A stretch of DNA of 64,000 bases, taken from contig JBGATH010000006.1 of NCBI GenBank assembly GCA_044229235.1, positions 10,760 to 74,759 of the forward strand, written 5' to 3'. Below are positions 43,997-46,894 of this stretch, in pieces (position 1 is the stretch's first letter; each line of letters opens with the position of its first letter). The notes beneath the pieces are model-generated. The model made no database searches. It saw nothing but the letters and a program-made list of their open reading frames with translations, and was not told where the DNA came from. Origin of the DNA: Usitatibacteraceae bacterium. GTDB taxonomy: Bacteria > Pseudomonadota > Gammaproteobacteria > Burkholderiales > Usitatibacteraceae. The position numbers and the translations under genes are program-made.

Positions 43997-46894
43997 ATGA
44001 GCACTGCCGAAAACACCAGCCAGCGTCCGCGTTTGTTGCTCGTCGATATTTCGAGCTATTTCTATCGCGCGTTTCACGCCATGCCGGACTTCCGTTCCCC
44101 GGCGGGCGAGCCCACCGGCGCGATCTTCGGCGTGGCCAATATGCTCAACAAATTGCGTGAGGAATATCCGGCCGATTATAGCGCCTGCGTTTTTGACCCC
44201 CGGGGCAAAACCTTTCGCGACGACATCTATCCCGAGTACAAAGCCAACCGCGAAAAAATGCCCGAGGAGCTGGCCCACCAGATCGGCCACATCCGCGAAG
44301 TGGCGGAGGCATTGGGCTGGCCGTGCATCGAGGTGGCCGGCATGGAAGCCGACGACGTCATCGGCACGCTCACGAAACACGCCGTGTCGCGCGGTGTGGA
44401 AACCATCATCTCCACCGGCGACAAGGACCTTGCACAGCTCGTCGAGGAGGGCGTGCTCTGGTACAACACCATGTCCAACGAAAAGCTGGGCGTGCAAGGC
44501 ATCACCGAAAAATTCGGCGTACCGCCCAATCGCATCATCGATTACCTGGCGCTGATGGGCGATACCGTGGACAACGTTCCCGGCGTGGAAAAGGTTGGTC
44601 CGAAGACCGCGGCCAAGTGGATTGCCGAGTACGGCTCGCTCGACAACATCATCGCCAACGCGCCCAACATCAAGGGTGTAGTCGGCGAGAACCTGCGCAA
44701 AGCGCTGGACTGGTTGCCTACCGGCCGCACGCTGGTCACGGTGAAGTGCGACGTGCCGCTGCCGTTCGATTTCGACACCATCGATCACAAGGCGCGTGAC
44801 ATCGCGCGGCTTGACAAGCTGTACGAGCACTTCGGCTTCAGGGGCATGCGCGCGGCCTTGCACAAGGGCGCGGGGCCGGTGGCCGAGTCTGCGGGCGACG
44901 GCTTGTTCAAGCAGGCGGCGAAGGACTCGAATGCGTCGCGGTGGTCGGCGGGTCAAATCCCTCCCGGCCTCCCTTTAGGAAAGGGAGGAGCGGATTCGGA
45001 ACACGCAAGCGCCTCGCAGGCTGGATCCCCCCCCTTTCCTAAAGGGGGGCCGGGGGGGATTTACCCTGCCCACACCTTCAACGCCACCCGCAACTACGAA
45101 TGCATCCTCACCGACGCGCAGCTCGATGCGTGGATTGCCAAGCTCAACGCCACCGAACTCGTCGCCCTCGACACCGAAACCACCAGCCTCGACCCGATGA
45201 GCGCGCGAATCGTCGGCCTTTCCTTTGCCTGTGTGGCCGGTGAAGCAGCCTATCTGCCGCTGAACCACATCTACCCCGGCGCACCCGATCAGCTGAACTT
45301 CGACACCTGCATCGCCAGGCTGCGCCCATGGCTGGAAGACGGTAGCAAAAAGAAGCTCGGCCAGAACATCAAGTACGACCTCCACGTATTCGCCAACCAC
45401 GGCATTCGGATTCAAGGTTACCAGCACGACACCCTGCTGCAGTCGTACGTGCTGGAAAGCCACCACCGCCACGACATGACCTCGCTGGCCACGCGTCATC
45501 TCAACGCCACCGACACCATCGCGTTTGAGGACGTCGCCGGCAAGGGCGCGTCGCAGATCAGTTTTGATCAGGTCTCCATTGAGGTCGCCACTAAATATTC
45601 GGCCGAGGACTCCGACGTCACGCTTCAGCTGCACGAAGCGCTGTATCCGCAAGTCGCGGGCGATGACAAGCTGAAGTTTGTGTACGAGAACATCGAAATG
45701 CCGACCACGCATGTGCTCCTGACCATCGAGCGCAACGGCGTGCTGATCGATGCGGCGCTGCTGGACAAGCAAAGCGGCGAACTCGGCCAGAAGATGCTGG
45801 AGCTGGAAACGAAAGCGCATGAACTCGCCGGCCAGCCTTTCAACCTCGGCTCGCCCAAGCAGCTGGGCGAAATTTTCTTCGACCGCATGAAGCTGCCGGT
45901 CATCAAGAAAACGCCGGGTGGCGCACCCAGCACGGACGAGGAAGTGCTGACCAAGCTAGCCGAGGACTACCCGCTGCCCAAGACCATTCTCGAATACCGC
46001 AGCGTGTCGAAGTTGAAGAGCACCTACACCGACAAGCTGCCGAAGATGGTGAACGCGAAAACCGGGCGCGTTCACACCAACTACGGGCAGGCCGTGGCCG
46101 TCACCGGCCGCCTGTCGTCCAACGACCCGAACCTGCAAAACATCCCGGTGCGCACAGCCGAGGGCCGCCGCATCCGTGAGGCCTTCATCGCGCCGCCCGG
46201 CAGCGTGATTGTGTCGGCCGACTACTCGCAGATCGAACTGCGCATCATGGCGCACCTCTCCGGCGACAAAGGGCTGCTCACCGCCTTTGCCGAAGGCCGC
46301 GACGTGCATCAGGCCACCGCCGCCGAAGTGTTCGGCGTTGCATTGCCGGACGTCACCAGCGAGCAACGGCGCTACGCCAAGGTGATCAACTTCGGCCTTA
46401 TTTACGGCATGAGCGCCTTCGGCCTCGCGAGCAACCTCGGCATTGAGCGCGCCGCGGCAGCGAGCTACATCGACCGCTACTTCGCGCGCTACCCCGGCGT
46501 GAAAGCCTACATGGACCGCACCCGCACCGAGGCGCATGAAAACGGCTACGTCGAAACCGTGTTCGGCCGCCGCCTGTGGCTGCCCGACATCAAGAGCGGC
46601 AACCAGGGCCGCCGCCAGGGGGCAGAGCGCGCAGCCATCAATGCCCCCATGCAAGGCACCGCCGCCGATCTCATCAAGCTCGCCATGATCGCCGTGCAGG
46701 GCTGGTTGGAAACCGAAAAGCTCGCCACGCGCATGATCATGCAGGTGCACGACGAACTGGTGTTGGAAGTGCCGGAATCAGAACTCGACCGCGTGAAGGC
46801 AAAGGTGCCGGAACTGATGGCCGGCGTGGCGAAGCTGGACGTGCCGCTGGTGGCGGAGCCGGGGGTGGGGAGGAATTGGGAGGAGGCGCACTAG
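43997..46894 (+). CDS. polA: DNA polymerase I
   Basis: 5'-nuclease N-terminus (LLLVDISSYFYRAFHA), 3'-5' exo motif ALDTETTSLD, polymerase motifs DYSQIELRIMAH, RRYAKVINFGLIYG, QVHDEL. Confidence 0.95.
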   Translation: MSTAENTSQRPRLLLVDISSYFYRAFHAMPDFRSPAGEPTGAIFGVANMLNKLREEYPADYSACVFDPRGKTFRDDIYPEYKANREKMPEELAHQIGHIREVAEALGWPCIEVAGMEADDVIGTLTKHAVSRGVETIISTGDKDLAQLVEEGVLWYNTMSNEKLGVQGITEKFGVPPNRIIDYLALMGDTVDNVPGVEKVGPKTAAKWIAEYGSLDNIIANAPNIKGVVGENLRKALDWLPTGRTLVTVKCDVPLPFDFDTIDHKARDIARLDKLYEHFGFRGMRAALHKGAGPVAESAGDGLFKQAAKDSNASRWSAGQIPPGLPLGKGGADSEHASASQAGSPPFPKGGPGGIYPAHTFNATRNYECILTDAQLDAWIAKLNATELVALDTETTSLDPMSARIVGLSFACVAGEAAYLPLNHIYPGAPDQLNFDTCIARLRPWLEDGSKKKLGQNIKYDLHVFANHGIRIQGYQHDTLLQSYVLESHHRHDMTSLATRHLNATDTIAFEDVAGKGASQISFDQVSIEVATKYSAEDSDVTLQLHEALYPQVAGDDKLKFVYENIEMPTTHVLLTIERNGVLIDAALLDKQSGELGQKMLELETKAHELAGQPFNLGSPKQLGEIFFDRMKLPVIKKTPGGAPSTDEEVLTKLAEDYPLPKTILEYRSVSKLKSTYTDKLPKMVNAKTGRVHTNYGQAVAVTGRLSSNDPNLQNIPVRTAEGRRIREAFIAPPGSVIVSADYSQIELRIMAHLSGDKGLLTAFAEGRDVHQATAAEVFGVALPDVTSEQRRYAKVINFGLIYGMSAFGLASNLGIERAAAASYIDRYFARYPGVKAYMDRTRTEAHENGYVETVFGRRLWLPDIKSGNQGRRQGAERAAINAPMQGTAADLIKLAMIAVQGWLETEKLATRMIMQVHDELVLEVPESELDRVKAKVPELMAGVAKLDVPLVAEPGVGRNWEEAH
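44955..45062. repeat. 108-bp nested palindromic (MITE/RPE-like) element inside the polA reading frame
   Basis: 34-nt terminal inverted repeats AAATCCCTCCCGGCCTCCCTTTAGGAAAGGGAGG / CCCCCCTTTCCTAAAGGGGGGCCGGGGGGGATTT (31/34 complementary). Each arm contains its own 9-bp hairpin. Length is 36 codons. Confidence 0.8.

What the first reader, a model, noticed from the sequence alone, without database searches (positions are those of the whole stretch)
44955..45062. 108-bp nested palindromic element inserted in frame in the polA inter-domain linker
SEEN: the element has 34-nt terminal inverted repeats that are 31/34 complementary. Each arm contains its own perfect 9-bp hairpin (CCTCCCTTT-AGG-AAAGGGAGG and CCCCCCTTT-CCT-AAAGGGGGG). 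The two hairpins differ by compensatory T/A to C/G changes. The length is exactly 36 codons, and the element reads through as QIPPGLPLGKGGADSEHASASQAGSPPFPKGGPGGI. It lies between the 5'-nuclease domain and the 3'-5' exonuclease domain (..YECILTDAQLDAWIAKL..). It also places C8, G6 and G7 homopolymer runs inside an essential gene. KNOWN: Rickettsia palindromic elements are the known precedent for palindromic repeats inserted in frame into protein genes. INFERENCE: this looks like a MITE-like element tolerated in a flexible linker. I saw only this one copy in the window.
Basis: partly seen in the sequence, partly recalled or inferred. Interest (0 to 1): 0.6.

Follow-up and report, generated by a model that had tools for sequence, protein, structure and literature searches.

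The report
Triplex-type repeat units inside polA linker
The 108-base palindrome inside the DNA polymerase I gene is two copies of a small selfish DNA repeat that is common between genes in this genome. The copies are read through as a floppy extra stretch of the linker between two enzyme domains; this is a known kind of event, but here the repeat is tied to a small nuclease gene that may move it.

Summary
Window 44955-45062 is a nested palindrome, read in frame, in the disordered PolA linker between the 5'-nuclease and the 3'-5' exonuclease domains.

It is not a one-off and probably not a single 108-bp MITE. Each arm is one unit of a genus-wide repeat family.
- This genome holds about 139 units, and only the polA pair lies deep inside a real gene.
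- 33 of 60 sampled sister species carry the family.
- The unit is a 9-bp hairpin plus a 'head' that co-varies with the stem in mirror fashion. This is the layout of the E. coli BoxC/PIT/TM 'intrastrand triplex' repeats.

The 38-nt spacer has no other copy in the genome. The canonical doublet has the opposite orientation. A relative's sequence suggests two single-unit insertions flanking ancestral linker codons. The net gain is 33 aa, not 36.

Related lineages carry other units at the same linker site, so the site has been hit repeatedly.

The two RAYT-like genes are flanked by a different repeat. A DUF559 (Vsr-like) nuclease gene is bracketed by these units in several genomes, and the canonical doublet looks like that cassette with the gene deleted.

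REP-tagged PolA is already published. This scan has also found triplex-type repeats in polA, and the DUF559 link, before on other DNA (CPR bacteria).

The parts
43997..46894 (+). polA (DNA polymerase I, 965 aa) that carries the insert
   Evidence: ORF and translation. Pfam domains are 5_3_exonuc_N 12-174, 5_3_exonuc 175-266, DNA_pol_A_exo1 367-553 and DNA_pol_A 588-963.
44955..44988 (+). Left repeat unit (subfamily TCCCTCC), pyrimidine-strand orientation. Head is 44955-44965 (third-strand segment 44958-44965) and hairpin is 44968-44988.
   Evidence: The same unit occurs at 97-100% identity elsewhere in the genome, for example C30:63037 and C7:9855.
44989..45028 (+). Unique spacer. It is probably ancestral linker codons (D S ... 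S Q A G S) plus a 15-nt expansion.
   Evidence: No other copy in the genome. In relative L063 the spacer DNA matches the ancestral heptapeptide codons of non-carriers. Comparison with the nearest non-carrier L067.
45029..45062 (-). Right repeat unit (subfamily TCCCCCC) in inverted orientation. Hairpin is 45029-45049, loop 45050-45051, and purine head 45052-45062.
   Evidence: The unit with this genome's typical AGG loop matches the family.
45063..45074 (+). Four codons (Y P A H). They are either the degenerate tail of the right unit or the remnant of the ancestral heptapeptide.
   Evidence: They align with F G G Q in L063, which is the canonical unit tail GGGATTT-TCGGTGG, and with S G A Q in P0002. 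Unresolved.
45027..45034 (+). C8 homopolymer. G6 lies at 45044-45049 and G7 at 45052-45058.
   Evidence: A simulated -1C gives a stop at residue 400 and +1C a stop at residue 348. No length variant was seen in contigs of four runs, but contigs cannot show rare variants.

Best explanation
The palindrome is two units, each about 34-45 nt, of a dispersed repeat family that is otherwise extragenic. Each unit is a pyrimidine arm, a 3-nt loop, a purine arm, a short loop and a 'head'. The head is the mirror image of the pyrimidine arm. This is the layout of the BoxC/PIT/TM 'intrastrand triplex' repeats. The two units belong to different subfamilies and face each other. They sit in the disordered linker between the 5'-nuclease and 3'-5' exonuclease domains of PolA. 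There they are transcribed and translated as a Pro/Gly/Lys-rich extension of the linker. They are most likely neutral passengers: only in-frame, stop-free insertions in a tolerant linker survive selection on polA. Shown: family membership, copy numbers, extragenic habit, mirror co-variation, position in a low-confidence linker, absence from most orthologues, and recurrence of other units at the same site. Inferred: (a) the pair arose as two single-unit insertions flanking the ancestral heptapeptide codons; (b) the allele spread among related lineages by recombination; (c) the units are moved or homogenised by a cognate DUF559 (Vsr-like PD-(D/E)XK) endonuclease whose gene they bracket, with the common heads-inward doublet being that cassette minus its gene.
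For: Family: BLAST finds about 100 matches to the arm in the genome. There are 155 hairpins of the type YYYCCTTT-N3-AAAGGRRR against 0 for the swapped-arm control. There are 139 full units in 70 clusters. The pattern count is 98 in G000, at least 1 in 33 of 60 genus genomes, and 0 for the reversed control everywhere.

Extragenic habit: only the two polA units lie at least 60 codons inside an ORF with coding GC3. A relaxed screen adds one doubtful 167-codon ORF.

Triplex layout: the head equals the purine arm, read in the same direction, at 7.14 of 8 positions. Shuffled pairings give 5.98, with a maximum of 6.19 in 1000 shuffles. Six subfamilies all obey the rule. The layout matches the TM_ECO description (PMC4666352).

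Linker: Pfam boundaries. AlphaFold pLDDT is below 50 for residues 291-355 and 85-98 in the flanking domains.

Insertion: about 75 non-carriers have exactly 13 aa between RWS and T[RK]xY, while the window has 46.

Recurrence at the same site:
- A single inverted unit in P0004 and P0008.
- A different triplex-type unit in 17 PolAs.
- Further units about 25 codons upstream.
- Units in other genera: P0054, P0091 and L090.

Two-insertion model: in L063, 2 + 7 + 4 ancestral residues are retained, the spacer DNA matches ancestral codons, and the right unit carries the canonical tail.

DNA-level conservation: 4-fold sites inside the units are identical in 9/9, 8/8 and 6/7 comparisons, against about 0.60 elsewhere in polA. 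The polA units carry each genome's own loop flavour.

DUF559 link:
- All 5 DUF559 genes of G000 have triplex-type units adjacent. The one at C2:53516-53896 is bracketed by this family, and its stop codon lies in the hairpin loop.
- Orthologues in G014, G077, G017, G004, G045, G005 and G065 have the units 7-46 nt upstream and/or overlapping the 3' end.
- The cassette sits in two different chromosomal contexts.
- Units are far more numerous in genomes with the cognate gene: median 13 against 0, Mann-Whitney p = 3e-8. Phylogenetic non-independence is not corrected.
- The 30-nt gap of the canonical doublet matches the 5' and 3' ends of the cassette.

Reality of the sequence: independent runs carry it.
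Against: No act of transposition, target-site duplication or empty-site/filled-site pair at strain level was seen, so mobility is inferred from distribution only.

The window's two units lack the canonical tail. The YPAH codons can equally be read as remnants of the ancestral heptapeptide, which would favour a single doublet insertion.

The three doublet carriers are not a clade on the rest-of-PolA tree. Starred branches force at least 3 changes, and the AU test gives p = 0.004 with the group named after seeing the tree. This needs recombination, several losses or several gains. The recombination signal is modest: a shared flank signature KDSNA, and a 120-nt sliding window on few sites.

Triplex formation is a sequence inference; it was not measured. 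Holder et al. did not detect stable triplexes in vivo for TM_ECO.

The DUF559 association is correlative, and kin genomes are not independent.

Neutrality of the insert for PolA is assumed, not tested.
Confidence: 0.8

Rival explanations
1. A single 108-bp MITE/REPIN-like element with 34-nt terminal inverted repeats inserted once, as a unit, into the linker.
For: The two arms are 31/34 complementary and the whole folds into one long hairpin. Four other heads-outward pairs of 105-110 bp exist in the genome. Three PolAs carry the same left-unit/spacer/right-unit order, and the spacer 3' ends look alike (S/A-Q-G-x-T/S before PPF). The YPAH codons could be what is left of the ancestral EPxxxQA.
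Against: The spacer has no other copy in the genome, and the other 105-110-bp pairs have unrelated spacers. The arms belong to two different subfamilies. The family's canonical doublet is heads-inward with a 30-nt gap in 21 of 30 cases. In L063 the spacer matches ancestral linker codons and residue counts add up to 13 ancestral + 13 + 15. Single units occur alone at this site in other lineages.
Confidence: 0.15
2. The units are classical REPs moved in trans by a RAYT (REP-associated tyrosine transposase).
For: The genome encodes two Y1_Tnp (PF01797) proteins at C23 and C6. REP/REPIN-RAYT is the best-studied system for such repeats (PMC3116915, PMC3333891, listed).
Against: Both Y1_Tnp genes are flanked by a different inverted repeat (AATAAATGGGGTCAGAC...), and no unit of this family lies on their contigs. 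The units lack the GTAG or CGTC tag that defines the two REP superfamilies of Di Nocera et al. (PMC3733652). A DUF559 gene, not a RAYT, is the gene bracketed by these units in several genomes.
Confidence: 0.08
3. The insert has been co-opted. Either its RNA/DNA structure pauses ribosomes or polymerases between the two PolA modules, or its C8/G7 tracts act as a slippage switch. The switch would yield a 5'-nuclease-only protein and a repair-deficient (mutator) state.
For: Synonymous sites inside the units are conserved far above the gene's background. The structure is very stable. A one-base slip truncates the protein just after the 5'-nuclease domain, at residue 348 or 400. Di Nocera et al. speculate that REP insertions in replication and repair genes are not fortuitous and might favour mutator states (PMC3733652).
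Against: Most species of the genus lack any insert. Carriers differ in unit type, number and position. The left hairpin has decayed in L063. The synonymous conservation is equally explained by recent insertion or by conversion from the genome's many other copies, whose loop flavour the polA units share. No indel variant was seen at the tracts, though only contigs were available.
Confidence: 0.06
4. Assembly or binning artefact: a repeat wrongly joined into polA in a metagenome-assembled genome.
For: The genome is a draft of 83 contigs from a bioreactor metagenome. Repeats often break or mis-join assemblies, and Logan unitigs do break at the units.
Against: Three other studies' runs give pieces with zero differences that overlap across the left junction, the whole element and the right junction. 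The reading frame stays open through it. Two other metagenomic PolAs carry the homologous doublet.
Confidence: 0.01

Closest known systems
BoxC / PIT elements / TM_ECO intrastrand-triplex motifs of E. coli and other Proteobacteria (Holder et al. 2015, PMC4666352; Hoyne and Maher as cited there)
   Same: The unit is 34-37 nt. It has a 9-nt pyrimidine arm, a short loop, a 9-nt purine arm, a roughly 3-nt loop (CCG in the polA right unit, as in TM_ECO type B) and a second purine block that can pair as a third strand. Both are multi-copy and intergenic. Both often occur as inverted pairs that combine two types. Copy number varies widely between close relatives. Neither has a known transposase.
   Different: The sequence differs. 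There are 0 matches to the TM_ECO consensus in this genome, and the stems end in TTT/AAA with an ATTT head. TM_ECO is reported as always intergenic, whereas here two units are translated inside polA. The units here bracket a DUF559 gene, which that paper does not report.
Intragenic REPs in replication and repair genes (Di Nocera et al. 2013, PMC3733652)
   Same: Short palindromic repeats, singly or as dimers, are read in frame and encode 20-30 or more residues. The genes hit include DNA polymerase I. Often this is the only REP-tagged coding sequence of the species. The authors propose tolerance in flexible linkers. Here polA is the only clear intragenic site among 139 units.
   Different: Those REPs carry a GTAG or CGTC tag and some are tied to RAYTs. 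These units carry neither tag and are not next to the genome's Y1 transposase genes.
Rickettsia palindromic elements (RPE), as cited in PMC3733652
   Same: Palindromic repeats are inserted in frame into genes that stay functional, adding a peptide segment.
   Different: RPEs decorate many genes of one genome; here it is one gene. There is no sequence relation, the host group differs and the unit architecture differs. This comparison rests on the cited review text and general knowledge, not on a sequence test.
REPIN-RAYT and MITE-IS pairs (non-autonomous doublets derived from an autonomous element; PMC3116915, PMC3337134 listed)
   Same: The heads-inward doublet with a fixed 30-nt gap keeps the first and last ~12 nt of the DUF559 cassette. 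This is like a REPIN or MITE that keeps the ends of its parent.
   Different: The candidate enzyme is a Vsr-like PD-(D/E)XK nuclease (DUF559), not a Y1 or DDE transposase. No transposition has been shown.

Membership tests
Intrastrand triplex motif repeats (BoxC/PIT/TM) | Three consecutive blocks (pyrimidine arm, purine arm, third-strand block) with short loops and 8 or more compatible triads | tested here: met
   The head matches the purine arm in the third-strand register at 7.14 of 8 positions over 139 units, against a shuffled maximum of 6.19. Six subfamilies co-vary. The two polA units are TCCCTCC/AGGGAGG and TCCCCCC/AGGGGGG.
Intrastrand triplex motif repeats (BoxC/PIT/TM) | Match to the TM_ECO consensus CCCTCNCCC-N3-6-GGGNGAGGG-N3-GGGNGAGGG | tested here: not met
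   There are 0 strict matches in the genome. The family is a separate sequence family with the same layout. Units next to other DUF559 genes (for example at C37) come close to the consensus.
Intrastrand triplex motif repeats (BoxC/PIT/TM) | Multi-copy, intergenic, inverted pairs combining two types | tested here: met
   139 units, 32 doublets and 9 arrays. Pairs of unlike subfamilies occur in G077 and G000. Only polA is intragenic.
Intrastrand triplex motif repeats (BoxC/PIT/TM) | A triplex actually forms (CD/NMR/footprint) | not testable with these tools
   ViennaRNA models only Watson-Crick pairs.
REP/REPIN with RAYT | A RAYT (Y1_Tnp) gene flanked by the same repeats | tested here: not met
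   The two PF01797 hits, on C23 and C6, are flanked by a different 26-29-nt inverted repeat. No unit of this family lies on those contigs.
REP/REPIN with RAYT | GTAG or CGTC tetranucleotide tag at the foot of the hairpin | tested here: not met
   The unit consensus is ...CCG(A/C)AAAT-head...hairpin and carries no GTAG or CGTC tag. Tag definition from PMC3733652.
REP/REPIN with RAYT | The doublet replicates as a unit, with the same spacer at many loci | tested here: not met
   The polA spacer is unique. The heads-inward 30-nt-gap doublets do share gap ends, but that is a different arrangement.
MITE (DDE-type) | Terminal inverted repeats plus a target-site duplication and many copies of the whole element | tested here: inconclusive
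   Inverted arms are present and there is no second copy of the whole. A possible duplication around the single unit of L064 could not be told from chance, and none is evident in the window.
Rickettsia palindromic elements | In-frame palindromic insert in a gene that stays intact | tested here: met
   Open frame of 965 aa with all PolA domains scoring normally.
Rickettsia palindromic elements | Sequence relation to RPE families; many genes decorated in one genome | tested here: not met
   Only polA is decorated. Sequence relation to RPEs was not tested. Rfam gives no family match.
DUF559-bracketed triplex-repeat cassette (lead from this scan's earlier notes, unpublished as far as the library shows) | A DUF559 gene flanked on both sides by inverted units of the same family, heads toward the gene | tested here: met
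   G000 C2:53516-53896, G014 C329 and G077 C29. Further cases are G017, G004, G045, G005 and G065. A literature search for DUF559 with 'repeat' gave nothing relevant.

The most novel reading that the evidence does not exclude
Triplex-type mini-repeats (the long-unexplained BoxC/PIT/TM class) are the non-autonomous offspring of small selfish cassettes that encode a DUF559 Vsr-like endonuclease. The nuclease recognises the hairpin-plus-head structure and drives spread and homogenisation of the units. This would explain their conservation at synonymous sites inside polA, and possibly the repeated hits in replication and repair genes.
Probability: 0.3. Interest if true: 0.75.

Novelty: new member of a known kind. 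Interest (0 to 1): 0.45.

Why it matters
The insert itself is ordinary. In-frame palindromic repeats in linkers of replication and repair proteins, DNA polymerase I included, are on record.

Three results add something.
- A well-sampled betaproteobacterial genus shows the same linker site hit repeatedly by at least two triplex-type repeat families. This makes the site a natural experiment on what a linker tolerates.
- The unit shows three-way co-variation (head, pyrimidine arm, purine arm) over six subfamilies. This is comparative evidence that the third-strand segment matters.
- The family is tied to a DUF559 nuclease cassette, with miniature gene-less derivatives. This gives a directly testable candidate for the enzyme behind a repeat class that has had no known mobiliser for three decades.

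Tried and rejected
- A fuzzy-regex census of the genome timed out and was replaced by blastn-short and regex.
- The first pattern for the genus search had the wrong spacing and under-counted; it was corrected.
- DNA for P0002 and P0081 could not be fetched because the sample files were too large. The doublet of P0002 was therefore compared only as protein.
- The single genome-contig scan with PolA returned only more distant genera at 57-65% identity and did not name the organism. The genus remains unnamed ('Betaproteobacteria bacterium' MAGs).
- The hairpin-density comparison of linker against the rest of polA over those 80 loci was spoiled by my N-spacer and is not used, apart from noting L090.
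- No RNA holder was listed among the sequencing runs, so nothing can be said on expression.
- Contigs showed no indels at the homopolymers but cannot show rare variants.
- Rfam gave only sub-threshold chance hits.
- A target-site duplication was looked for by eye around the units in L064, L065 and the window. It could not be established.
- The look-up of this scan's notes by sequence found nothing.
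Full report
**1. The observation**

The sequence at 44955-45062 is as described. The two 34-nt arms are 31/34 complementary, and each holds a perfect 9-bp hairpin with a 3-nt loop. A degenerate pattern for the hairpin matches twice in the window against none in 100 shuffles. 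The 128 nt around it fold at -92.4 kcal/mol as RNA (z = -7.75) and -46.8 kcal/mol as DNA (z = -6.4).

The element lies in the 965-aa polA ORF 43997-46894 and is read through. It occupies residues 320-355, between Pfam 5_3_exonuc (ends at 266) and DNA_pol_A_exo1 (starts at 367). An AlphaFold model built on 39 PolA sequences gives pLDDT below 50 for residues 291-355. The flanking domains score 85-98.

The C8, G6 and G7 runs are present. Contig pieces from three other studies' metagenomes match without a single difference across both junctions and the whole element. The insert is therefore not an assembly artefact.

**2. It is a pair of units of a large repeat family**

The arm, but not the whole 108 bp, recurs throughout the genome.
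- BLAST finds about 100 matches to the arm.
- There are 155 hairpins of the type YYYCCTTT-N3-AAAGGRRR, against 0 for a swapped-arm control.
- There are 139 complete units in 70 clusters: 29 singlets, 32 doublets and 9 arrays of 3-9 units.
- A strict pattern counts 98 copies here and at least one in 33 of 60 other species of the genus. A reversed-pattern control gives zero everywhere.
- The genome behind relative P0004 holds 86 copies.
- A screen for units lying at least 60 codons inside an ORF with coding-like GC3 returns only the two polA units. A relaxed screen adds one doubtful 167-codon ORF.

The family is thus a REP-like extragenic repeat, and polA is its one clear intragenic site.

**3. 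Architecture of the unit**

Upstream of the hairpin each unit has a 'head' (AAAT plus a pyrimidine run). Across 139 units the head, transliterated T/C to A/G and read in the same direction, equals the purine arm at 7.14 of 8 positions. Shuffled head-arm pairings give 5.98, with a maximum of 6.19 in 1000 shuffles.

Six subfamilies all obey this rule: TCCCTCT, TCTCCCT, TCCCCCT, TCCCTCC, TCCTCCT and TCCCCCC.

On the G-rich strand the unit reads as pyrimidine arm, 3-nt loop, purine arm, 2-3-nt loop and purine block. This is the layout of the BoxC/PIT/TM_ECO 'intrastrand triplex motifs'. Those motifs have these properties (Holder et al. 2015, PMC4666352):
- They are 34-37 nt long.
- They are always intergenic in E. 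coli.
- They are often paired in inverted orientation, combining two types.
- Their number varies greatly between relatives.
- They are not linked to any transposon.

The sequence here is different; there are no matches to the TM_ECO consensus. Whether a triplex forms cannot be tested with these tools.

**4. The 108 bp is probably not one mobile element**

The 38-nt spacer has no second copy in the genome. The other heads-outward pairs of similar length have unrelated spacers. The family's canonical doublet is heads-inward with a gap of exactly 30 nt in 21 of 30 such pairs.

About 75 PolA orthologues without an insert all have exactly 13 residues between RWS and T[RK]xY. The window has 46, a net gain of 33 rather than 36.

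In relative L063 (P0003) the counts add up as follows:
- 2 + 7 + 4 ancestral residues;
- a 13-residue left unit;
- a 15-residue right unit that ends in the family's canonical tail.

The L063 spacer DNA (GACCCGGCGCAA...) matches the ancestral heptapeptide codons of non-carriers (GAGCCG..GCGCAA). The window fits the same scheme with a 15-nt expansion of the spacer.

I therefore favour two single-unit insertions flanking ancestral codons. The window's own flanks are degenerate, however, and a single doublet insertion is not excluded.

**5. Recurrence and history**

The same linker is decorated in many relatives.
- A single inverted unit of this family sits directly after RWSAG, before the heptapeptide, in P0004 and P0008. 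Its position differs from the window's right unit, so it is a separate event.
- A different triplex-type unit (peptide SPLPSVGEGAEGGRG) sits at that site in 17 PolAs. On DNA it is a hairpin, a mini-hairpin loop and a purine block.
- Further such units lie about 25 codons upstream in others.
- PolAs of more distant genera carry two or three units: P0054, P0091 and L090.

On a PolA tree built without the linker columns, the three doublet carriers fall in one well-supported clade of 24 rows but are not each other's closest relatives. An AU test rejects their monophyly at p = 0.004, with the group named after seeing the tree.

The three carriers alone share the flank signature KDSNA. A sliding comparison shows the window nearer to L063 than to its overall nearest relative only around the linker. 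The simplest reading is one origin of the doublet allele followed by recombination among related lineages. This is inference.

**6. DNA-level conservation**

At 4-fold degenerate sites the window matches L063, L064 and L065 in 9/9, 8/8 and 6/7 positions inside the units. Elsewhere in polA the match is about 0.60.

The polA units also carry each genome's own loop flavour: AGG here, and TGC in the genome of L064, whose polA unit is identical to other copies in that genome. This points to recent insertion or conversion from the genome's repeat pool, rather than selection on the peptide. Selection on the structure cannot be excluded.

**7. What moves the units**

The genome's two Y1_Tnp (RAYT/IS200-like) genes are flanked by a different inverted repeat.

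I then followed a lead from this scan's earlier notes on other genomes and searched for DUF559.
- All five DUF559 genes of this genome have triplex-type units directly adjacent.
- The gene at C2:53516-53896 is bracketed by units of this very family. Its last seven codons and its stop codon lie inside the 3' unit.
- Orthologues at 51-73% identity occur in 16-18 of 60 genus genomes and in the genome of L064.
- Where positions could be compared, a unit lies 7-46 nt upstream and/or overlaps the 3' end. This holds in G014, G077, G017, G004, G005 and G065. It also holds in G045, whose only unit is that one.
- The cassette sits in two unrelated chromosomal contexts.
- All 26 sampled genomes with no unit lack the cognate gene. 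Every genome with 19 or more units has it, except one that is 80% complete. The Mann-Whitney test gives p = 3e-8, without correction for relatedness.
- The 30-nt gap of the canonical doublet reproduces the first and last ~12 nt of the cassette, as in a miniature derivative.
- The second unit type seen in PolA linkers flanks another DUF559 paralogue.

I found no paper linking DUF559 with such repeats. The link is correlative, and no nuclease activity or transposition has been shown.

**8. Comparison with what is known, and verdict**

In-frame palindromic repeats are known from Rickettsia. Di Nocera et al. (PMC3733652) report them for GTAG/CGTC REPs in several species. They note that many lie in replication and repair genes including DNA polymerase I, that these are often the only REP-tagged genes of a species, and that flexible linkers may tolerate them. 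The triplex-type unit layout is also known (PMC4666352).

This scan has already reported triplex-type repeats in frame in polA of CPR bacteria and their DUF559 link. I reached the triplex reading and the Holder paper independently, before that look-up. The DUF559 lead came from those notes and was tested here.

The finding is real and well explained. It is a new member of a known kind. Its added value is the recurrent-site picture and a replicated, testable candidate for the mobilising enzyme.

Noticed in passing
G000:C2:53516-53896 (minus strand; locus L153), outside the window: A DUF559 (Vsr-like) gene is bracketed by inverted units of the same repeat family as the polA insert. Its stop codon lies in the hairpin loop of the 3' unit. 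Orthologous cassettes occur in many genus genomes in two chromosomal contexts.
   Followed up: yes
G000:C37:4005-4322, C25:7593-7907, C53:28905-29213, C58:1739-2053: The four other DUF559 genes each have their own triplex-type hairpin-plus-purine-block units directly adjacent. The C37 units are close to the E. coli TM_ECO consensus. C53 and C58 are paralogous fdhD-DUF559-mobA regions.
   Followed up: partly
G000:C6:4176-4499 and C23:21887-22219 (loci L062, L061): Two Y1_Tnp (RAYT/IS200-like) ORFs of about 245 aa are each flanked by a 26-29-nt inverted repeat (AATAAATGGGGTCAGAC...). This repeat is unrelated to the polA repeat. Only a handful of similar sites exist in the genome.
   Followed up: partly
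Relatives' PolA linkers: L066:1808-2026, L043, L032; proteins P0030, P0052, P0060, P0081 and others: A second repeat type (peptide SPLPxxGEGAEGGRG) is inserted at the same site after RWSAG in 17 PolAs. On DNA it is a hairpin, a GCCGAAGGC mini-hairpin and a GGGAGAGGGG block. It is also inserted at a second site about 25 codons upstream in many others, in various states of decay.
   Followed up: partly
P0054 (L068), P0091/P0107 and L090 (PolAs of other betaproteobacterial genera): Two or three tandem repeat-derived peptide units (PPFxKGG; PPYPPLSKGG; PSLPLEGGG) lie in the same inter-domain linker. The linker is therefore a sink for such repeats beyond this genus.
   Followed up: no
G000:C58:135087-136011, C80:15579-16307, C47:22533-23080, C66:20851-21236: Arrays of 4-9 units are present, mostly in alternating orientation with periods of about 105-145 nt. 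One subfamily has a long 45-nt head (AAATCCCCCAAGC...GCTTGCCCCCTTT).
   Followed up: no
polA, window about 44840-45290 (residues ~280-430): Around the linker the window's polA is nearer to L063 than to its overall nearest relative L067. The three doublet carriers alone share the flank KDSNA. This suggests a mosaic gene formed by recombination.
   Followed up: partly
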